DNA of 64,000 nucleotides, taken from positions 1 through 64,000 of IMG/VR virus record IMGVR_UViG_3300027797_000012. One strand, given 5' to 3'. Positions 13,203 to 27,836 of the stretch are shown in pieces. Source of the stretch: a virus. The position numbers and the translations under genes are program-made. The notes below the pieces were generated by a model. That model had not been told where the DNA came from, ran no database searches, and saw nothing but the letters and a program-made list of their open reading frames with translations. How positions within the stretch are numbered: position 1 is the first letter of the stretch; the number at the start of each line of letters is the position of its first letter.

Positions 13203-14123
13203 TCAGGAAACGTCTCGATAAATCTGCGAAACAACTTTCGCCCAAATTACCGGAGTGTGCTCAAGTGGTTGATAACCACCAGCTCCTCCAATAAGAACTC
13301 TGCCTTGCGAATGCTTATTAGCTATACGAGCTACAGCCTTAGCCGCGTACTCGTATCCTGGATAATCAAACTGCAATGAAGACAGAGGATCTGTCTTGTG
13401 CGCATCGGCTCCAGTAGCTAGAAGAATAACATCTGGCTTGATCTCATCCGCTAATGCTTCTATCTCATCCATTGCCTTCTTGAAAGCTTCATCACCGCTG
13501 TTCGCCGGTAGCGCCCAGTTGTAAACTCCTTCGTCTGGTGAATGCCCGCTTCGCCCAGTACCTGGAAAGATAGTTCCATCATGGATACTCGCAGTAACAA
13601 TATCGTAGTGATCTCGTAAAAGATTCTCTACGCCATCGCCATGGTGCGCATCCCAGTCAATGTACATAACCTTTAGGCCTTTGAGATCAAACTGACGAGC
13701 AGCCCAAGCCATATCGTTGAATACACAGAACCCAGATGAGTGGTCGTACTGCGCATGGTGCTTAGCTCCCTGAGGATTAAACGCAACCTTTGCTTCACCT
13801 GCTAAGATCTTTTCAACAAGACGAACTGTGCCCGCAAACATCTCTAAGGCAACCTGACCCTTTTCAAGACTGTTTGGACGCCATTCTCCGCAGTGCCCAT
13901 CATCCAACACCTTAGAAACATAGTGTGAATCGTGTACGAACTGTACTCGATCTCGATCTATGTCTGTGGCATTAGGCGTGACAAGCTCAATATCAAATTC
14001 TTCTGCAAGAAGATTTGTAGCAAGCTTAGCTCGCATAGGATTAGTCGGATGGTTATCGCCTTCAGATCCAAGCTTCCACTTTAAGTAAACATCATCGTAA
14101 GCTACATGTAGTTTACTCGGCAT
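13203..14123 (-). CDS. Zn-dependent histone-deacetylase (HDAC/AcuC) family protein
   Basis: HPTNPMR, GAKHHA..SSGFCVFND, IDWDAHHGDG, IFPGTG, GADAHKTDPL, GGAGGY. Confidence 0.92.
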   Translation of the reverse strand: MPSKLHVAYDDVYLKWKLGSEGDNHPTNPMRAKLATNLLAEEFDIELVTPNATDIDRDRVQFVHDSHYVSKVLDDGHCGEWRPNSLEKGQVALEMFAGTVRLVEKILAGEAKVAFNPQGAKHHAQYDHSSGFCVFNDMAWAARQFDLKGLKVMYIDWDAHHGDGVENLLRDHYDIVTASIHDGTIFPGTGRSGHSPDEGVYNWALPANSGDEAFKKAMDEIEALADEIKPDVILLATGADAHKTDPLSSLQFDYPGYEYAAKAVARIANKHSQGRVLIGGAGGYQPLEHTPVIWAKVVSQIYRDVS

Positions 14124-18980: not shown

Positions 18981-19271
18981 TTACACCAGTCTTTCTTTTG
19001 CAAGAACTGCGTTCTTTACGAGTTCAACTACATCTTTGTTAAATCCACCGATGTTGTACTCCATAACTTCATCCATGTCAGGCGCACCTAAATCGTAGCG
19101 CTTCCAATCATAAACTGTCGCAACAGACCCATCTGAAAACATGTGGGTCCATTCAACGGTAACTTTGTCACCTGGGTAGTAGAACGTTGGTTCGTCAAAT
19201 GCCTTAATGAGATCTCTCATTGTAGTTGTGACATACCCTTGTAGGGATGTTCCATTTGCGATGTTGCTCAT
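18981..19271 (-). CDS. Conserved-looking hypothetical phage protein
   Basis: GTSLQG..., DKVTVEW, ATVYDWK, NIGG; promoter plus SD. Confidence 0.7.
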   Translation of the reverse strand: MSNIANGTSLQGYVTTTMRDLIKAFDEPTFYYPGDKVTVEWTHMFSDGSVATVYDWKRYDLGAPDMDEVMEYNIGGFNKDVVELVKNAVLAKERLV

Positions 19272-19312
19272 TTCTTTGTCCTTTCGTCGTTGTTAGTACT
19301 ATTATAACATGT

Positions 19313-19537
19313 TTACTTGTCTAAGTAAACTATCTCCACAAATTCATTTGCCCAGGCGGTAAGCCCAGCTTCCATCTTGTTTTTATGATGACCGCAGAAG
19401 AATAGCTCAGCTCCGGAGTTCCCTTTTACTTTCCAGATTGCCTGAGCTGTCTGGCAGGAATCACAAGGAACCCAACCGTAAGAATCTTTAGGCGTTTCTT
19501 CAAGTACTTTTACTTCTTCAGTAATGGTAGACTCCAC
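19313..19537 (-). CDS. Small zinc-finger protein
   Basis: CDSC...LFFCGHH. Confidence 0.6.
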   Translation of the reverse strand: MESTITEEVKVLEETPKDSYGWVPCDSCQTAQAIWKVKGNSGAELFFCGHHKNKMEAGLTAWANEFVEIVYLDK

Positions 19538-20208: not shown

Positions 20209-20655
20209 TTACTTAACTGGGTACTTGTCCGCATCTTTCTGAGTGACCGGAGTCATCTGACCAAAATCTGGGTTTGTTAGGTGTGAGTTAATGTAAACTA
20301 TAATGTCTTCATAATCTACATCAAAGGAGAAGAGAGTGTGAGTATAGTACTCACTGTGAATTCTTAGCTCATAACATTTAGAACCGGTGTCTTCAACTAG
20401 AGTAGGTTCTGACTGGTCTTCATCTACTATGTAGTAGATACCTTCTGGAGTCTTTACTAAGAAGGTGCCCGCATCTTGTCCACCTAAACCTATAGATAGA
20501 AGAATGGTTCCTTCTGGGAGAGTATTGATGTATGGGGTTTCTAATTCATCATACCAAGAAACTTTATTGTTTTCATCATTTAGGTATGAATTGAAATCAA
20601 CTGCTGGAGTATTTTTGAAGTGGTTGTTGAAGTGAGTAAGTGTTGAAGTCTTCAT
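20209..20655 (-). CDS. Hypothetical protein
   Basis: Promoter plus GATTGGA SD; AT-rich. Confidence 0.6.
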   Translation of the reverse strand: MKTSTLTHFNNHFKNTPAVDFNSYLNDENNKVSWYDELETPYINTLPEGTILLSIGLGGQDAGTFLVKTPEGIYYIVDEDQSEPTLVEDTGSKCYELRIHSEYYTHTLFSFDVDYEDIIVYINSHLTNPDFGQMTPVTQKDADKYPVK

Positions 20656-20773
20656 TTAGGTTCCAATCTATTTTTTAACCCTTGTGGTTAATAAGATAAT
20701 TGTATCATACTTCTATTATAAAGTACAATTGAAGGTACCCTACCGGTGAGTAGGGTACCCGCAATAATTAGAA

Positions 20774-20917
20774 TTAGCTCCAGAAGTTTTCTGAGGCGTA
20801 GCTCTCAGCCTGGACTGCCGGCTTGCTCTCCTTGCGGGCTAGCCAGACCCACATAATGATAAGAGGTGTGTTTAGAAGTAGTGCGCCTGCGATAATCTGA
20901 ACTAGTGCTGTTGTCAT
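20774..20917 (-). CDS. Small membrane protein
   Basis: 47 aa; same promoter/leader cassette as the gene starting at 20655. Confidence 0.55.
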   Translation of the reverse strand: MTTALVQIIAGALLLNTPLIIMWVWLARKESKPAVQAESYASENFWS

Positions 20918-21001
20918 TTTGTTTTCCAATCTTTCTTTTTTATTAACCCTTGTGGTTAATAAGTTAATTATAACATGGTTCTATTACAAAGTACAATACC
21001 A

Positions 21002-21296
21002 AATGAAAGAAGCTGGCCGCGTGGATTGGAATACGCGCAGCCAGCTTCAATTCACTGGACAAGACAGTTTGCTCACAAAGGGCCTGATTCGCGCTTCACT
21101 TTTTGCGCAGTACCGCATGTCGATTCTGCTATGCGGTTTTAATCCTAACTTCCCTAAGACAATATTGCTCTGTCTCTTTCCTAAGTCAAGCTACCCATAC
21201 CCGCGGTGCCGTGTCAGCTTATCGGGAGTAGTGTCTCCATGAGATACCCTTATGCTCCAAGACTTAGTAAGTCCAAACCTACGTATTAAGTTGTTA
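21002..21296 (-). ncRNA. Candidate about 290-nt structured ncRNA
   Basis: Promoter at 21302, no credible ORF, multiple helices, terminator at 21002-21048. Confidence 0.6.
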
Positions 21297-21313
21297 GTCC
21301 TATTATAACAGGT

Positions 21314-21493
21314 TTATTCCCATTCGGTAATAAATACTGCCTCGAAATCTTCTATTGGTCGTTTTAGACCAATCCGCGCCATCTCCAGGTATCGGGTAAC
21401 GTCCGCACGTTTACGGGCACGAAACTTAGAGATGCGTTCACCCGTATGAACATCACGAATTTCCCAGATGCCAGCCGATGCATTTTTGCTCAC
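21314..21493 (-). CDS. Hypothetical protein
   Basis: GTGA coupling. Confidence 0.5.
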   Translation of the reverse strand: MSKNASAGIWEIRDVHTGERISKFRARKRADVTRYLEMARIGLKRPIEDFEAVFITEWE

Positions 21494-21861
21494 CGGAAGA
21501 ACCCAGCTTCTTCTTCGTACGAATTGCGAAGCTTTCTTGCAAGTTCCTCGAGCTGTACTAGCCAAGGGTGCGGTAGAGCTAGGTTGTCACCTTCATCGTC
21601 CGTGCCGCCGGTGAATACGACGTCGCCCATAATGATGTCGGACATGATGAAAGACTTTTCCCAAAGGTGAGTAGCAATAACGTTTGGTTGCATTCCATTG
21701 ATAAGCTTACCCTCTTCGTTACACCAAAGTGTGAGGTCGTCATACAGGTCTGCTGCTTCAACCAAGCCGCCGACAGCTTCCTGGAGTTGTGTGAGACTGT
21801 CTACCTCAAGATCTAAGATCTCTGTTGTGAAGTCCGTGTTAATTCGTAGTGCTGTTTTCAT
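21490..21861 (-). CDS. DUF3846-family protein
   Basis: LQEAVGGLVE, WCNEEGKL, N.IAT, IMGDVVFTG. Confidence 0.8.
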   Translation of the reverse strand: MKTALRINTDFTTEILDLEVDSLTQLQEAVGGLVEAADLYDDLTLWCNEEGKLINGMQPNVIATHLWEKSFIMSDIIMGDVVFTGGTDDEGDNLALPHPWLVQLEELARKLRNSYEEEAGFFR

Positions 21862-22043
21862 GATGTAGCTATCTCCGCTTCTGGAAACCACTTAAGGAAT
21901 ACTTGAATGAGATGATTGTAGTCTCCTGAAGTCATCTCTTCGGTAAATGTTGCAAGCTCGTCTTCACGACCCGCACTTATTAAAGCACGCCTACCGGCGC
22001 CAATGAATGAGAAAGCATTCCCATCGTTAACTGAAACTGTCAT
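21858..22043 (-). CDS. Hypothetical phage protein
   Basis: DGNAFSFIG...SGDYNHLI. Confidence 0.65.
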   Translation of the reverse strand: MTVSVNDGNAFSFIGAGRRALISAGREDELATFTEEMTSGDYNHLIQVFLKWFPEAEIATS

Positions 22044-22273: not shown

Positions 22274-22408
22274 TTAGATAACCTCTCTTCCGCATTCACG
22301 GTACAAGTCTTCACCGCATCCTCCGCAGTAGGCAAGCAGACATTTAGCTCCATCTGCGTGAATGCAAGGAATGAAACTTACTTCTGTACTATTACAGTAT
22401 GTGCTCAT
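22274..22408 (-). CDS. Small Cys-rich protein
   Basis: 44 aa after GAAAGGATTGGA SD. Confidence 0.5.
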   Translation of the reverse strand: MSTYCNSTEVSFIPCIHADGAKCLLAYCGGCGEDLYRECGREVI

Positions 22409-22601
22409 TGCTTTCCAATCCTTTCGTCGTTTAAGTATTCAAGGGCCGCGGTGATGCTTCGGCCTATCTTGCCAGAGGTGCCTGCAGATTATGCACGGCA
22501 CGTGGACTCGGGCGTCGCGTGTTCCGCCTAGTTTAACTGGTGACCAGCACCCTTGAATAGTTTAATTATATCAGGTTATGAGGAAGAAGTACAGGGCTGC
22601 C

Positions 22602-23457: not shown

Positions 23458-24360
23458 TTACCAGTACTTTCGTTCGAATACCGTTACCGTACGGTAGGCG
23501 TTTTGTAGGGACGCCTTAACGTTATCCATTACCGTTCCTATGGCCAAGCCACCCGATAGCTCTCTAGCCAGTCTGGTAGCTACTGAGACCGTTGCACCTG
23601 AGGTACCCAGGCTGACCGCCTTTGTCCCCGTTACGTCGGTTACCGTCCATCGTCCCATGGCATACAGGTCTAGGTCCGGGCTGGAGTTCGATATCAGCAT
23701 GATGGGGTAGACCCAGCCTTGAATATTCTTGACCGTGTATCGGGTATCCGTTGCCCCTACCGCTATCGCCTGTGGTATACAGGCTGGGTAGTAAACTTTC
23801 TTTTGATCCGAGCCGTTACCCGTTGAAACAACAACCGGCACGTTAACCGAGGCTAGCCCAATGATTTGATCTTGTAATTTAGTTTCGATAGGGCATGCCG
23901 CTTCTCTGTACGCCCGTCCGAATGAGACTGATACCGCGCCAACATTTAGCCGTGCCGCATTGGCAGATACCCAATCGAGAGCGAGTGATAGAGCTTTAGT
24001 TGTGTATGTGGTTGCACGTCCTTTAGACATGCCGACAACACGAACAAACACAATCTTGACGTCTGGGTTTACCGTTACTGCAACCGACGCCATCTGCGTG
24101 CCGTGACTCATAGCTTTGTCTGTTACAAGCTTTGGGTCTAGCGTTGCCGCACCTGGGCCAACCATACTTGACTTGCCGTTTGGACACAAGCCGTACTCGA
24201 TGAAGCATGCTTCTTCGATGACCGCACTCTTTGCCCAGTCGAGATTTGTGTTGATACCGGAGTCGATGATGACAAGAGTTTTATCGCTTGCCGCATTCGC
24301 CGGAGTTGAGAGTAGAGCTAAGCCTAAGGCTGCACATATAAGTAGCACTTTAGTTTTCAT
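23458..24360 (-). CDS. Secreted subtilisin-like (S8) serine protease
   Basis: Signal peptide; triad motifs IIDSGI, HGTQMA, GTSGAT; TGN. Confidence 0.88.
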   Translation of the reverse strand: MKTKVLLICAALGLALLSTPANAASDKTLVIIDSGINTNLDWAKSAVIEEACFIEYGLCPNGKSSMVGPGAATLDPKLVTDKAMSHGTQMASVAVTVNPDVKIVFVRVVGMSKGRATTYTTKALSLALDWVSANAARLNVGAVSVSFGRAYREAACPIETKLQDQIIGLASVNVPVVVSTGNGSDQKKVYYPACIPQAIAVGATDTRYTVKNIQGWVYPIMLISNSSPDLDLYAMGRWTVTDVTGTKAVSLGTSGATVSVATRLARELSGGLAIGTVMDNVKASLQNAYRTVTVFERKYW

Positions 24361-24561: not shown

Positions 24562-26358
24562 TTAGGCAGCCCGCTGCCCAATCTTTGTAAGTGCCTTCGC
24601 TGCTGCAGAACCAATCTGCACCGCAGCTTCTGCTGGGTCTCGTACATCTGAAAGAATCACAGTATCCGGACCTGCAATTCCACGAGCGTATCTGCCCTCT
24701 TCGAAAGGAATCCATAGAACTGCAACTCCAGCTTTTTCGCAAGCGCGAACCCACGCTTTAGCTTTTGTTCGCTCATCATCTGTATAGCAACCATCGCTAA
24801 CAATTACGAGTAGACGAGCGCCAGTTCCATTGAGAAGATTTAGAGAACCATCAAGTGCCTTGAACGCCTTATCGAACTTTTCAGTTCCATCAGGTGCAGT
24901 GTACACAGTAACTTGGTCAAGGTGCTGTCCTGGCTTAAGCGTAGGGAACACATCCTGTCCGTAGTAAACCATTGCGCATCTACCTTGAACACGTCGAACA
25001 GCTTCTGACATCGCCCAGGCAGTTGCTGCCATAGGCTCCATGGCTGATGCCATTGAACCGGAGATGTCAACCATAACTCCAACGTTAAGCGTTGGGTCAT
25101 CTGTATGACGACGCACAGTTCTACGCCAAGGTTCTGCATGCATCATAGGATTCACAACTTTGTAAGCTGCTTCCTGAACCATTGCGCGAGTACGCAAGCG
25201 ACCGGGAGGAAGAATAGATTTGATCTCCTTCTCATCGCGCTCACGGTACTTAGCTTTTTCTAAGAGCTGAGCAATCTTAACTGCTGCCGCACGCTCAGGA
25301 CCGGTAGGATTACGAGTCTCTTTGATACGAGAGTGAGTCTTGAATGACGACATCTCTCCGGTAGCTTTTGCGAATACTTCACTAGCAGTTTTCTCGTGGT
25401 CGCGTTGCTGCTTAGCAGCTATGCTGCGCATGTCAACAACGTCTTTCCACTCTTCAGCTTGCTCTTGATCTTGAGCTTCATCGTTTACAGAGATAGCAAT
25501 CTCTTCAGATGCTTCTTCCAAAGCGTCCATGACTTCACCAAGTGGTCCATCCATGAGAATAAGAATTCCCTTTTCACCAAGGGGAGCTTCGTCGTCGCCT
25601 TTGTCTTCAGCAAGCTTAGAGATGATGTCGTCCCATTCTTTTGCAAGAACGATTAGATTTGTTGGATCGCTATGTAGCTCGTGCTTTTGAAAGCGCAACC
25701 ACACGTCGCGAAGCTGCGCGAGCACCTCTGTACCGAAGAAGTTAAGTAGAAGTTCTTTTACTTCTAGCACATCGTCTGCGTCTAGCGAACCTGCATCAAC
25801 ACGAGCAAGTACTAGTCCAGCCATTCGTCCCATAGAACGAGTAGTTGTAGTTTCAGCGAGTGATGATTTAATGTCTTCAAGAATGATATCCATTGCGCAA
25901 GCGCGAAGGAACACTCTGTTGTTTGGATAGTTTTCTACACCGAGAGCTTCGATACGAGTCTCTTCAAGAAGTGTAAGTGCGTCGAACACATTGCGACTTA
26001 CTTCTTTGTCTTCGCTAATCTTTAGAAGATCGTAGCGTGAGTACCGAGCGTGCAGTGCTTCATGGAAGATAGCTCCTGCGCCTCGTGGATAGTTAAATTG
26101 AATTGTTCTATTGCGAATATCGCCAATAGTTTCAGGAGATACTCCTGTGCCGAAAGCTACATCCACGTTGACCTCAACTTCAGCCATTGGTGGATTAAAG
26201 CATGCAGGCGCTGGTCCTCCAGCTCCGGGGCCAACGTATGCGACAATGTCGCTGCGTCCTGCCCAAGTATTCACGAGCTCACCCAGCTGGGCGCCTACGC
26301 GTAGCCACTCTGGCTGCGTACGTTCCGCTCGGGTCATTGATAACTTAATGTGTCCCAT
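24562..26358 (-). CDS. CobT-like vWA protein with N-terminal HExxH motif
   Basis: FHEALH, LEETRIE, GRL, MIDAS VDISGSM, VSDG. Confidence 0.85.
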   Translation of the reverse strand: MGHIKLSMTRAERTQPEWLRVGAQLGELVNTWAGRSDIVAYVGPGAGGPAPACFNPPMAEVEVNVDVAFGTGVSPETIGDIRNRTIQFNYPRGAGAIFHEALHARYSRYDLLKISEDKEVSRNVFDALTLLEETRIEALGVENYPNNRVFLRACAMDIILEDIKSSLAETTTTRSMGRMAGLVLARVDAGSLDADDVLEVKELLLNFFGTEVLAQLRDVWLRFQKHELHSDPTNLIVLAKEWDDIISKLAEDKGDDEAPLGEKGILILMDGPLGEVMDALEEASEEIAISVNDEAQDQEQAEEWKDVVDMRSIAAKQQRDHEKTASEVFAKATGEMSSFKTHSRIKETRNPTGPERAAAVKIAQLLEKAKYRERDEKEIKSILPPGRLRTRAMVQEAAYKVVNPMMHAEPWRRTVRRHTDDPTLNVGVMVDISGSMASAMEPMAATAWAMSEAVRRVQGRCAMVYYGQDVFPTLKPGQHLDQVTVYTAPDGTEKFDKAFKALDGSLNLLNGTGARLLVIVSDGCYTDDERTKAKAWVRACEKAGVAVLWIPFEEGRYARGIAGPDTVILSDVRDPAEAAVQIGSAAAKALTKIGQRAA

Positions 26359-26404
26359 TGTAATCCTTCCGTCATTGATAGGTTAATTATATCAGGTTTA
26401 TTGG

Positions 26405-26674
26405 TTAATCCCAACCACGGCATCCGCAGTAGAAAGTGTCCTGTGCGTCTCCACGGGGAACGAAGTCATGGACTCCGTAGTTATGCCCAGGGCGACCGGT
26501 GGTTGGATTGATTTCCATGTGTGTGACTATGCTGTACCCACAAGAGAGACAACTGCTTGTAGCTCTGTCGCTACCTTCGCCATTGAATTGAAAGAATGGC
26601 AAGCTTGTGGCTGATGCACTTTCGCTTGTGCAGGATACGCACTTAGCGGTTCTTCCTTCGAGAGTAATTTCCAT
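26405..26674 (-). CDS. Cys-rich hypothetical protein
   Basis: AKCVSC...FYCGCRGWD; promoter plus SD. Confidence 0.6.
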   Translation of the reverse strand: MEITLEGRTAKCVSCTSESASATSLPFFQFNGEGSDRATSSCLSCGYSIVTHMEINPTTGRPGHNYGVHDFVPRGDAQDTFYCGCRGWD

Positions 26675-26716
26675 TTTAGTTCCTTCCGTCTGTTAGGTAC
26701 TATTATATCAGGTAAG

Positions 26717-26791
26717 TGGGGAGAGTGGGGCTCGAACCCACGCGACGACCGGAGTATAAGTCCGGAGCTCTACCAACTGAGCTACCTCCCC
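26717..26791 (-). tRNA. tRNA-Ile (anticodon UAU)
   Basis: Full cloverleaf: GGGGAGG/TCTCCCC acceptor, CCGGA-CTTATAC-TCCGG, GTGGG-TTCGAGC-CCCAC, discriminator A; CCA not encoded. Confidence 0.85.
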
Positions 26792-26840
26792 GTGCGTGAA
26801 CCCTGGGCACCCATACCCAGGGTTCACCGCGCGAAGGGGA

Positions 26841-27836
26841 TTATATCTTCGCTGGTCGACACTCCTCGCCATACACTCTGGTGAGAACATCCGCAACGAC
26901 GGGGCGGTCCAACTCCGGAGCGGAGGCGATTAGGTTCGCTACTGCGAACTTCGTGCCGAACGATTTAGAGATGTCACGGAACGCAAGTAGCTCACGCATC
27001 TGTGGACACCAACCGCATTCGCCAGAAGCCTGGCGACGATTTATATTTTGCGCAACTGTAACTACCTGCGCTGAGGCTCCAAGCTTCTTAGCGAGTGACC
27101 AGTCGGTAGTCATCTCAACTTGAATCACGAAGCGAGATAGAAGAGCTTCAGATAGTCGAACTCCAGGCGCATTTGGATTTGTAGCTCCGATGACGTAGAA
27201 CCCGTCTTTAGCTTTAACAGTTCCACGCTCTGGATTAGCAGTGACTGTAATCTCACGGCGACCGTCCATAAGTCCATAAGCTCCTGAAAGAACCTTAGGA
27301 TCAATAAGACCAATCTCATCGATTAGCAGTGGCACGCCTTCTTCGGCAGCTTTTAGTAGTGGGCCATCTTCCCACAGGAATCCACCTGCAGGAGTTTGAA
27401 TGAATCCACCAATTAAGTCTGAAAGCTCAGTGTCGCCTGAACCCATAATTGTGTACATCTTTTCGAACGCAGCTTCAACGAGTGCAGTTTTACCGCAACC
27501 TGGAGCTCCGTACAGAAGAATAAACTGTTGGTCCATACGCGCCTTGCGAAGAACCATGACGTCGTCATGCTCTCCCCATTTACGAGAGTGGTACATCTCG
27601 CCATTAGGACGAGCGTAGGAATCTTCTCCTACAAGGGCATCTGCAGATAACACTGGCGCTACTTTCTTGGTTGGGGTTGCTCGATGAGTAACCTTACCCT
27701 GAGCGAGAAGCATTGAGTCAAGTGCACTCGAGATCTCTGCATTGGTAGATTGAGCGAGAATATGCGTGATAGATTCGGTAGTTCCGACAGCAACTGAGTC
27801 AATTGCTGTTCTTACATCTTCTAATACTGTTGACAT
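26841..27836 (-). CDS. MoxR/CbbQ-type AAA+ ATPase
   Basis: GAPGCGKT, WEDGPL, LLIDEI, ATNP, SEALLSRF, REL. Confidence 0.9.
   Translation of the reverse strand: MSTVLEDVRTAIDSVAVGTTESITHILAQSTNAEISSALDSMLLAQGKVTHRATPTKKVAPVLSADALVGEDSYARPNGEMYHSRKWGEHDDVMVLRKARMDQQFILLYGAPGCGKTALVEAAFEKMYTIMGSGDTELSDLIGGFIQTPAGGFLWEDGPLLKAAEEGVPLLIDEIGLIDPKVLSGAYGLMDGRREITVTANPERGTVKAKDGFYVIGATNPNAPGVRLSEALLSRFVIQVEMTTDWSLAKKLGASAQVVTVAQNINRRQASGECGWCPQMRELLAFRDISKSFGTKFAVANLIASAPELDRPVVADVLTRVYGEECRPAKI

What the first reader, a model, noticed from the sequence alone, without database searches (positions are those of the whole stretch)
21002..21307. About 290-nt stand-alone structured RNA of unrecognised class
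Seen: own promoter and terminator, only an 8-codon ORF. Helices include CUAAGUC/GACUUAG (alternative GACUU/AAGUC), AGACA/UGUCU, ACCGCAU/AUGCGGU and GCGC/GCGC, long-range UGGAC/GUCCA, and a possible pseudoknot CAUAAGGGU/GCCCUUUGUG. I recognise no tmRNA or RNase P hallmarks. Inference: a new large phage ncRNA such as a decoy, polymerase-binding RNA or ribozyme.
Basis: partly seen in the sequence, partly recalled or inferred. Interest (0 to 1): 0.75.

Follow-up and report, generated by a model that had tools for sequence, protein, structure and literature searches.

The report
Orphan structured RNA of lake actinophages
This stretch is a real stand-alone gene for a folded, non-coding RNA of about 295 bases that a group of lake-water phages of actinobacteria keep; it matches no catalogued RNA family and its job is still unknown.

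Summary
The finding holds. On the minus strand (about 21295 to 21002) lies a gene for a roughly 295-nt RNA. It has its own extended -10 promoter (TGTTATAAT, 21310-21302) and its own terminator (hairpin 21048-21009 plus U-tract). The 220-nt core folds into 11 helices: closing helix P1, a 5' three-way junction and a rod-like 3' domain. I collected 46 distinct homologues. All come from uncultured freshwater phage or metagenome contigs; a pattern scan of 185,579 bacterial and archaeal species genomes found none.

On these homologues 93.9% of pair cells are canonical, against 27-44% when the partners are slid. 38 of 56 pairs show compensatory changes, against 7-12 when slid. No Rfam family, tmRNA or conserved ORF fits. 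The RNA is an accessory cassette: a complete relative (G001) and the closest named phage (Actinomycetia phage DSL-LC01) lack it. One 43-nt arm is nearly invariant and survives even in a 108-nt mini-variant.

The claim of only an 8-codon ORF is wrong.

Function is not shown. My best guess, about 40%, is a protein-binding decoy or scaffold RNA made early in infection.

This scan met the same family before on other DNA (e1-6025411, e1-6025424), also without a function.

The parts
21302..21310 (-). Extended -10 promoter TGTTATAAT of the RNA gene. The predicted start is near 21295, about 7 nt downstream.
   Evidence: Read. TGNTATAAT stands at the same place in 43 of 45 homologues. The same promoter word recurs elsewhere in the phage.
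21278..21295 (-). 5' leader with an optional small hairpin (AACUU..AGGUU). Many homologues lack it; there the -10 box lies 8-9 nt from P1.
   Evidence: Alignments; distances from the -10 box to P1.
21056..21275 (-). Structured core, closed by P1 (21275-21271 with 21060-21056).
   Evidence: Model R1 scores it 249.1 bits.
21181..21267 (-). 5' domain: P2 (21267-21261 with 21187-21181) enclosing the P3 arm and the variable hairpin P4 (21210-21190).
   Evidence: P2 has 3 of 7 compensatory pairs in the window's clade and 6 of 7 in all clades. P4 has 2 of 6 and 4 of 6.
21216..21256 (-). Near-invariant P3 arm: P3 AGC/GCU, a 4x5 internal loop, P3a GGG/CCC, P3b UCUC/GAGA and an AUG triloop. Consensus across 46 sequences: Gc.UA.GGGU..C.CAUGG.G..A.UA.UCCC.A.AAGC.
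   Evidence: The loop pair A:G switches to C:A in perfect step (32 + 14 of 46). P3 and P3b show compensatory changes. The arm is retained in the 108-nt mini-variant.
21061..21176 (-). 3' domain. PX is GAGACAG/CUGUCUU (21176-21170 with 21067-21061). P5 is 21157-21152 with 21082-21077. P6 is 21144-21141 with 21089-21086. P7 is a hairpin at 21136-21113. P8 is a hairpin at 21109-21090.
   Evidence: P6 changes GAUU/AAUC to GAGU/ACUC in 7 of 28 sequences. P5 changes G-C to A-U in 3 of 28. P7 has 10-11 of 28 double changes at two pairs. PX has 6 of 7 compensatory pairs once all clades are aligned.
21001..21048 (-). Intrinsic terminator: hairpin 21048-21009 with loop UAUUCCAAUC, then UUUCAUUU at 21008-21001.
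   Evidence: The stem covaries (5-8 of 14 sequences at four pairs). The hairpin is modular: at least four loop types occur in the family.
20967..20996 (-). Not part of the RNA. This is the separate promoter of the next gene (TTGTAC, 18 nt, TGTTATAAT). It shows that the RNA is not that gene's leader.
   Evidence: A promoter follows the terminator in most homologues.

Best explanation
Shown. Window 21295-21002 (minus strand) is a stand-alone gene for a structured non-coding RNA of about 295 nt with a 220-nt core. The window is part of a 130.5-kb uncultured freshwater actinophage. A host-type extended -10 promoter, of the kind repeated throughout the phage's island of small genes, drives the gene, and an intrinsic terminator ends it. 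The RNA belongs to an uncatalogued family found only in related lake phage contigs. It is an accessory cassette, inserted after a DUF3846 gene and a small basic-protein gene.

Inferred. The RNA is made early and acts as a ribonucleoprotein. Its near-invariant P3 arm (two short G-C helices, structured internal loops and an invariant C-AUG-G hairpin tip) is a recognition module for a host or phage protein, which the RNA sequesters or scaffolds. The rest of the molecule (P1, PX, P5-P8) is a scaffold that is kept in shape but is free in sequence. In the window's subclade the terminator loop UUCCAAUC may add a second, antisense activity. That activity would be aimed at GAUUGGAA words at the ribosome-binding sites of neighbouring small genes.

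My odds: a real structured ncRNA gene, about 0.9; the protein-binding mechanism, about 0.4. The confidence given here is for the mechanism.
For: Gene anatomy.
- The promoter word is present in 43 of 45 homologues.
- The terminator hairpin covaries.
- A separate promoter follows the terminator.

Structure.
- On 28 distinct sequences of the window's clade aligned by sequence alone, 93.2% of 1548 pair cells are canonical, against 28-45% when partners are slid. 14 pairs and 81 cells show double changes, against 0-4 pairs and 0-11 cells when slid. 0 of 500 shuffles reach these values.
- On 46 distinct sequences of all clades, 93.9% are canonical. 38 of 56 pairs and 200 cells show double changes, against 7-12 pairs and 11-27 cells when slid. 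That alignment was fitted to the model.
- The helices hold 101 G-U cells against 23 A-C cells, so they fit the minus-strand transcript: 93.2% canonical on that strand against 88.2% on the other.

Not coding.
- The longest frame differs in strand, place and length among the 44 full-length homologues (14-79 aa; the 45th, L107, was not measured because of a script slip).
- The little frame that starts at the invariant AUG changes peptide and loses its stop in 8 of 46 sequences.

No known family.

Phage-only and accessory.
- A pattern of the arm found 0 stretches in 185,579 species genomes, 21 in IMG/VR and 51 in metagenomes.
- Model R1 finds nothing in the complete relative G001, in G002-G004 or in DSL-LC01.
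- The cassette is missing from the same site in L015, L016, L017 and L019.

Pointers to a recognition module.
- The arm is invariant at about 25 positions in 46 of 46 sequences while flanking helices are rewritten.
- It has a perfectly covarying non-Watson-Crick pair, A:G in 32 and C:A in 14.
- A 108-nt variant keeps only P1, P2 and the arm.

Presence in RNA libraries. One contig inside the gene in each of 4 of 4 metatranscriptome runs laid, from four studies: 21082-21258, 21082-21248, 21082-21235 and 21040-21221. A further RNA run holds 96% of the sampled words.
Against: - No partner protein is identified.
- The two upstream genes (DUF3846 in 34 of 37 loci, a small basic protein in 33 of 37) also occur in relatives without the RNA, so they are not specific partners.
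- Comparing three RNA-bearing genomes with one complete RNA-less genome picked out no RNA-related gene.
- Transcription is not proven. The runs are assembled contigs and RNA libraries can hold DNA.
- The simple promoter/terminator scan did not list either signal.
- An invariant arm would also fit a catalytic core, a tertiary or quaternary contact, or a ligand pocket.
- The antisense add-on rests on few sites. GATTGGAA occurs 5 times in the window against 1.65 expected, and 3 of 100 shuffles reach 5. The terminator loop is not conserved across the family.
Confidence: 0.4

Rival explanations
1. It is a trans-acting antisense regulator. Exposed conserved loops (the terminator loop UUCCAAUC in the window's subclade, or the invariant CAUGG tip) pair with leaders or start regions of phage or host mRNAs and tune their translation.
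For: GATTGGAA, the complement of the terminator loop, lies 6-8 nt before the start codons at 22408, 20929 and 20655. All four minus-strand copies lie within 3.3 kb of the RNA. In relatives with the same loop type, 8 of 12 (L006) and 5 of 9 (L010) promoter-led leaders carry a complement of 6 nt or more, including one 12-nt match. That loop is conserved while its stem covaries. Earlier notes of this scan describe anti-leader sRNAs in such phages (e1-5937684, e1-6147093); these are leads only.
Against: The terminator loop differs in other family members, with four or more types, and those loops mostly lack matching leaders: 0-4 per locus, 0 of 22 in G006, 1 spurious match of 8 in L012. Enrichment in the window is weak (3 of 100 shuffles reach it). 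Pairing does not explain an 11-helix body with invariant internal loops. CAUGG is too short to define a target.
Confidence: 0.15
2. It is an RNA that works without protein: a ribozyme, or a self-assembling RNA-only particle as reported for GOLLD, ROOL and OLE. The invariant arm would be the catalytic core or the contact between copies.
For: The fold is large and branched. Strictly invariant unpaired nucleotides sit inside a covarying scaffold. The hairpin tip carries the self-complementary word CAUG. Phage-linked large RNAs form homo-oligomers, according to the abstract of 10.1101/2024.12.08.627333 (listing).
Against: No match to any ribozyme family of Rfam. Covariation in P3b fits the hairpin register (position 3 with 9), not an extended intermolecular duplex (my reading). 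No substrate or cleavage site is evident. Three RNA contigs stop at 21082, but that is also a point where family members diverge.
Confidence: 0.12
3. The arm mimics a translation start site. In every member a GGG (usually AAGGG) lies exactly 6 nt before the invariant AUG. The RNA would then bind 30S subunits or a translational repressor (operator mimic), or a tiny ORF there would be translated.
For: GGGU..C.CAUGG is invariant, with fixed spacing, in 46 of 46 sequences. A short frame starts at that AUG in all: MGTLLPIS-type in 30, MVEYS(Q/R) in 8. Genuine leaders of these phages use GAAGGA or UUGGAG 7-9 nt before AUG. Operator hairpins that hold an SD and an AUG are known from RNA phages and T4 (recalled, not from a call).
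Against: The GGG is paired with CCC and the AUG sits in a 3-nt loop, so the site is closed. The peptide is not conserved and its stop is lost in 8 of 46, through a change that keeps helix P3. That argues for structure over coding.
Confidence: 0.1
4. It is a cis-acting leader or riboswitch that gates read-through into the downstream genes.
For: It ends in a terminator next to P1. Short complementarity (CCAG/CUGG) between the 3' strand of P1 and the terminator stem could form an anti-terminator in the window (my reading).
Against: A full promoter stands between the terminator and the next gene, in the window and in most homologues. The downstream gene varies, with at least seven different clusters. 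Relatives keep both flanking genes without the RNA. The CCAG/CUGG pairing is not kept in other clades. No riboswitch family matches.
Confidence: 0.05
5. It is not an RNA gene at all: a protein gene on the plus strand (107-aa frame 20919-21242), or a DNA-level element such as an origin or a packaging site.
For: Open frames of 107 and 55 aa exist on the plus strand of the window.
Against: These frames are not kept. In L010 and L097 the longest frame on either strand is 23 aa, and indels of 1, 2, 5 and 7 nt are common. G-U pairs favour the minus-strand transcript. Complete relatives lack the element, which argues against an essential origin or pac site.
Confidence: 0.03

Closest known systems
GOLLD and ROOL (large ornate RNAs often carried by phages and prophages)
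   Same: A stand-alone, highly structured, non-coding RNA in phage genomes. It was detected by covariation and its biochemical role is unknown. GOLLD was likewise first seen in lake metagenomes (recalled).
   Different: No sequence or structure match to their Rfam models. The core is 220 nt, against several hundred nt for those RNAs (recalled). It is not next to a tRNA gene; the nearest lies 5.4 kb away. Oligomer formation was not tested.
Stable early RNAs of T4 (species 1 and 2, also called RNA C and D) and similar orphan phage RNAs
   Same: Small, stable, non-coding phage transcripts without a known function. They are dispensable or accessory (recalled).
   Different: The T4 RNAs are processed out of the tRNA cluster transcript (recalled). 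This RNA has its own promoter and terminator and is unrelated in sequence.
phi29 pRNA (packaging RNA)
   Same: A phage RNA from an early promoter. Its paired 5' and 3' ends close a multi-branch fold and it works as part of a protein machine (recalled).
   Different: No match to the Rfam pRNA model. I found no pair of mutually complementary, covarying loops for ring formation. This phage has a T4-type large terminase. Complete relatives lack the RNA, so it cannot be essential for packaging.
Protein-sequestering RNAs and Y RNAs (6S, CsrB, Y RNA/YrlA with Ro60)
   Same: The proposed logic is the same: a conserved protein-recognition module sits on a scaffold that varies.
   Different: No Rfam match. 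The fold is not a 6S-like rod. I did not search the phage for a Ro60/TROVE gene. The partner is unknown.
Candidate structured RNAs mined from IMG/VR (PMC10690425)
   Same: The same data source and the same kind of evidence: covariation in phage intergenic regions.
   Different: Those 8,495 candidates are 29-151 nt long (passages read), so the whole 220-295-nt RNA cannot be one of them. Pieces such as the arm or the terminator might be listed in the supplements, which I could not open.

Membership tests
Any Rfam 15 family (4227 models) | Score at or above the family's gathering threshold | tested here: not met
   The whole window gives only two tRNAs. In the region searched at E up to 10, the best hit is 21.6 bits against a threshold of 60.4, and it lies on the terminator hairpin. 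Seven homologous loci give only one tRNA. Members of clades B and C searched at E up to 10 show no recurring hit.
tmRNA | tRNA-like domain plus a tag-peptide reading frame | tested here: not met
   ARAGORN finds two tRNAs and no tmRNA in the window. No Rfam tmRNA hit.
RNase P RNA | Match to the bacterial or archaeal RNase P models, including the conserved P4 pseudoknot core | tested here: not met
   No hit, even at E up to 10. In this RNA the PX helix lies directly next to the 3' strand of P1, and the fold has no P4-type topology (the topology comparison is from memory).
6S RNA / Ms1-type RNA-polymerase-binding RNA | Long rod with a central open-promoter-like bubble | tested here: not met
   The consensus fold is branched, with two three-way junctions. 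No Rfam 6S hit. Binding itself cannot be tested here.
Riboswitch or cis-regulatory leader | Lies in the 5' UTR of the regulated gene with no promoter in between, and is linked to a consistent downstream gene class | tested here: not met
   A separate promoter stands between the terminator and the next gene. The downstream genes vary.
phi29-type pRNA | Two loops complementary to each other for intermolecular ring formation; essential for packaging | tested here: not met
   No such covarying loop pair appears among the top stacks. Complete relatives lack the RNA. No Rfam hit.
Orphan stand-alone structured ncRNA genes of phages (a descriptive class) | Own promoter and terminator | tested here: met
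   (43 of 45 with TGNTATAAT).
Orphan stand-alone structured ncRNA genes of phages (a descriptive class) | Secondary structure supported by compensatory changes | tested here: met
Orphan stand-alone structured ncRNA genes of phages (a descriptive class) | No conserved reading frame | tested here: met
Orphan stand-alone structured ncRNA genes of phages (a descriptive class) | Transcribed as a discrete RNA | tested here: inconclusive
   Contigs of 4 of 4 metatranscriptome runs lie inside the gene. Contigs show neither ends nor strand, and RNA libraries can hold DNA.

The most novel reading that the evidence does not exclude
The RNA acts without a protein partner. Its invariant arm would be the active centre of a new ribozyme class, or the contact that assembles several copies into an RNA-only particle, deployed early by lake actinophages.
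Probability: 0.12. Interest if true: 0.85.

Novelty: new member of a known kind. Interest (0 to 1): 0.6.

Why it matters
Freshwater Actinomycetia are among the most abundant lake bacteria, and their phages are almost unstudied at the bench. This work gives a well-supported RNA family with 46 variants and an 11-helix consensus. One arm is nearly invariant, and the RNA is present in metatranscriptome libraries of four studies. The family is concrete enough for direct experiments: probing, pull-downs and cryo-EM. If the arm captures a host factor, it would be a new RNA-based way for a phage to take over or disarm its host. If it works alone, it would add a ribozyme or an RNA-assembly class. Even with the function unknown, it deserves a catalogue entry, so that the roughly 300-nt gap stops being read as a spurious ORF.

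Tried and rejected
- DNA similarity to 50,697 GenBank phage records: no match for the RNA region or for 12 kb around it.
- Simple promoter/terminator scan: listed neither signal of the RNA. It found 9 promoter-like sites against 6.7 expected, so it is not informative here.
- Naive all-against-all covariation: swamped by lineage signal, since two subclades make many column pairs co-vary. I used helix-level counts with slid controls instead.
- RNAalifold on the four clade-B and eight clade-C sequences alone: the folds were inconsistent. The covariance model aligned these clades better.
- Metatranscriptome cover of the flanks: none of the four runs covered 20400-21039 or 21259-22000. Three contigs stop at 21082, but no DNA run was laid beside them, and that position is a divergence point in the family. 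It is no evidence for a processing site.
- Partner search by synteny: the DUF3846 gene and the small basic gene always precede the RNA, but they also occur without it. Pfam and PHROGs give them no function.
- Partner search by gene content: 48 frames of G000 are shared with the RNA-bearing G005 and G006 and are missing from the RNA-less G001. Most are shadow frames. The real ones (deacetylase-like, phosphatase-like, subtilase, a 293-aa and a 197-aa protein) show no RNA link. One RNA-less genome is too few.
- Extra tertiary pairings: the model helices top the list. UUACU (J1/2) with AGUGA (P8 loop) has 5 pairs but only 1 that covaries. I do not claim it.
- Host-RNA mimicry: tested only through the pattern scan of species genomes (0 hits).
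- Literature: three searches gave no description of this RNA. Of PMC10690425 I read passages only. Its supplementary tables and models, which may list fragments of this RNA, were closed. All other papers were seen as listing and abstract start only.

Full report
What is there. I read window 20700-21600 directly. Nearly all genes in this part of the window lie on the minus strand. Between the stop of an 83-aa frame (21314) and the promoter of the next small gene lies about 300 nt with no plausible gene.

Read on the minus strand, it begins with TGTTATAAT (21310-21302), an extended -10 box. It ends with a long G+C-rich hairpin (21048-21009) followed by UUUCAUUU (21008-21001). Straight after that comes a full promoter for the next gene: TTGTAC, 18 nt, TGTTATAAT (20996-20967). 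A 27-nt copy of the RNA's promoter stretch stands at 19289-19315 in front of another gene. A profile that included the promoter matched dozens of other sites in related loci.

The window is the first 64 kb of a 130,553-bp virus record rated complete. It carries a T4-type large terminase. That terminase is 79.7% identical to the one of Actinomycetia phage DSL-LC01 from lake water. Its next relatives are Microbacterium, Gordonia and Arthrobacter phages. So this is a freshwater actinophage.

Is it more than chance? The minus strand folds to -99.1 kcal/mol (z -3.29, 0 of 100 shuffles as good). The plus strand folds to -90.6 (z -2.56, 2 of 100). That alone is modest. The comparative evidence is what counts.

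Homologues. With the upstream DUF3846 protein I fetched 47 related viral loci, and nhmmer found the RNA in 18 of them. Patterns from the most conserved stretch found 16 and then 21 IMG/VR stretches, 51 metagenome stretches, and none in one genome each of 185,579 bacterial and archaeal species. These collapse to 50 distinct variants, 45 of them full length. They form three main clades plus minor forms. All 43 variants that still have their upstream sequence carry TGATATAAT or TGTTATAAT, 8-29 nt before helix P1. All end in a hairpin plus a U-tract, though the hairpin itself is exchangeable.

Structure. RNAalifold on 14 sequences gave 46 pairs, 24 of them with compensatory changes. I then curated a consensus on 32 sequences (28 distinct) of the window's clade, aligned by MAFFT alone:
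- P1 closes the molecule.
- P2 encloses the P3-P3a-P3b arm and the variable hairpin P4.
- PX lies directly next to the 3' strand of P1 and opens a rod of P5 and P6.
- That rod ends in a junction of hairpins P7 and P8.

On this alignment 93.2% of 1548 cells are canonical, against 28-45% with partners slid by 1-3 columns. 14 pairs and 81 cells have changes on both sides, against 0-4 pairs and 0-11 cells when slid. No shuffle of 500 reaches the observed values.

A covariance model of this structure (R1) matched 67 places in 99 sources. These include clades B (62-83 bits) and C (30-35 bits) over the full model length. It matched nothing in the 32 other sources. On the resulting 46 distinct sequences, 93.9% of cells are canonical and 38 of 56 pairs carry double changes, against 7-12 when slid. 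The caveat is that this alignment was fitted to the model.

By eye, clade B rewrites PX, P5, P7 and P8 completely while keeping the architecture. The helices hold 101 G-U cells and only 23 A-C cells, so they belong to the minus-strand transcript.

P2, P7, P8 and P1 are his helices, and they stand. His local hairpin AGACA/UGUCU is broken in 11-18 of 28 sequences and never compensated; AGACAG pairs with the distant CUGUCU instead. His pseudoknot CAUAAGGG/CCUUUGUG can form in 89.7% of cells but shows no covariation and scores the same as the shuffles. Its two halves are used by P3a and P5. P5 has the compensated change AGGG/CCCU to AGAG/CUCU in three sequences. I cannot exclude it as an alternative conformer.

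'Only an 8-codon ORF' is wrong. The RNA strand has a 23-codon frame and the other strand has 107- and 55-aa frames. Across the 44 full-length homologues measured (the 45th, L107, was not measured because of a script slip), the longest frame jumps between strands, places and lengths of 14-79 aa. So nothing is coding.

Known families. Rfam 15 gives nothing at gathering thresholds in the window or in seven homologous loci. With E up to 10, only stray hits appear, on the terminator. ARAGORN finds no tmRNA. The RNA region and the 12 kb around it have no DNA match in GenBank phage records. Three literature searches found no description. The IMG/VR mining paper PMC10690425 reports candidates of only 29-151 nt (passages), and I could not open its supplements. 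This scan met the same family twice before on other genomes (e1-6025411 and e1-6025424, each sharing 28 of 94 words). Both earlier reports also left the function open.

Distribution. The RNA always follows the DUF3846 gene (34 of 37 loci) and a small basic gene (33 of 37), while the gene after it varies. Close relatives keep those two genes and the next promoter but lack the cassette (L015, L016, L017, L019). R1 finds nothing anywhere in the complete relative G001, in G002-G004, in G009 or in DSL-LC01. It finds exactly one copy in each of G000, G005, G006, G007 and G008. The RNA is therefore an accessory, single-copy cassette in the plastic island of small promoter-led genes.

Expression. Six RNA runs hold part of the stretch, and one holds 96% of the sampled words. 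In each of the four runs I laid, from four studies, one contig of 151-183 nt lies wholly inside the gene (21040-21258). Two of these contigs have no difference from the window. This shows presence in RNA libraries, not a transcript. Contigs give no ends or strand, DNA can contaminate such libraries, and the lack of flank cover does not count as evidence.

Clues to function. One 43-nt arm (21256-21216) is almost frozen: Gc.UA.GGGU..C.CAUGG.G..A.UA.UCCC.A.AAGC in 46 of 46 sequences. Its three short helices still show compensated changes. Its internal loop has a non-Watson-Crick pair that switches A:G to C:A in perfect step, 32 and 14 of 46, in three clades. A 108-nt mini-variant (L104, L089) keeps only P1, P2 and this arm.

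An invariant, irregular arm on a scaffold that keeps its shape but not its sequence is what protein-recognition modules look like. That, the early-type promoter and the accessory status make me favour a decoy or scaffold RNA for a host or phage protein, at about 0.4. I could not name the partner. Synteny and a gene-content contrast of three RNA-bearing genomes with one RNA-less genome were uninformative.

Two further observations feed the rival readings. First, in every member a GGG lies 6 nt before the invariant AUG, like a closed translation start. The little frame there is not conserved, and it loses its stop through a change that preserves helix P3. Second, the window's terminator loop UUCCAAUC complements GAUUGGAA at the ribosome-binding sites of three neighbouring genes. 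In L006 and L010, 8 of 12 and 5 of 9 leaders match. The enrichment in the window is weak (5 found, 1.65 expected, 3 of 100 shuffles reach it), and other family members carry other loops.

Verdict. This is a real, uncatalogued, structured ncRNA gene of freshwater actinophages. It is a new family within the known kind of orphan phage ncRNAs, and its function is open. Interest 0.6.

Noticed in passing
window 21021-21036 (terminator loop); 22413-22420, 20924-20931, 20661-20668, 19102-19109 (minus strand): The terminator loop UUCCAAUC is the complement of GAUUGGAA. That word sits 6-8 nt before three start codons next to the RNA. In relatives with the same loop (L006, L010) most promoter-led leaders carry it, including one 12-nt match.
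   Followed up: partly
L104:1599-1706 and L089:1901-2008 (minus strand): A 108-nt mini-form of the RNA keeps P1, P2 and the invariant arm. A 28-nt A-rich single strand replaces the whole 3' domain.
   Followed up: partly
window 21250 and 21223 (alignment A4 columns 28 and 55): A non-Watson-Crick pair flanking helix P3a switches A:G to C:A in perfect step in 46 of 46 sequences and in three clades. This points to an ordered internal-loop motif.
   Followed up: partly
window 21247-21238: GGG, exactly 6 nt, then an invariant AUG in all members, like a closed ribosome-binding site. The short frame that follows (MGTLLPIS-type or MVEYSQ) is not conserved.
   Followed up: partly
window 19289-19315, 20685-20765, 20960-21040, 21280-21360: The same promoter word (TTGTAC/TTTACT, about 17-18 nt, TGNTATAAT) recurs before many small minus-strand genes. 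The island looks built from promoter-led cassettes that relatives gain and lose.
   Followed up: partly
window 21314-21565 and 21490-21891 (minus strand): The DUF3846 gene and the following small basic gene overlap by 76 nt in different frames. The same overlap is seen in L015. Neither gene has a known function.
   Followed up: no
window 24562-27836 and 26716-26791: A pair of an AAA_5 ATPase (331 aa) and a protein with a C-terminal VWA domain (598 aa), which recalls CobS/CobT-like pairs in phages (from memory). A tRNA-Ile(UAU) gene lies between them. A subtilase (23458-24360) and a deacetylase-family gene (13203-14123) are shared with RNA-bearing relatives but are missing from G001.
   Followed up: no
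window 21082: Contigs of three metatranscriptome runs from three studies all begin at 21082, the first base of the 3' strand of P5. This could be a processing site, or simply the point where co-occurring variants diverge.
   Followed up: no
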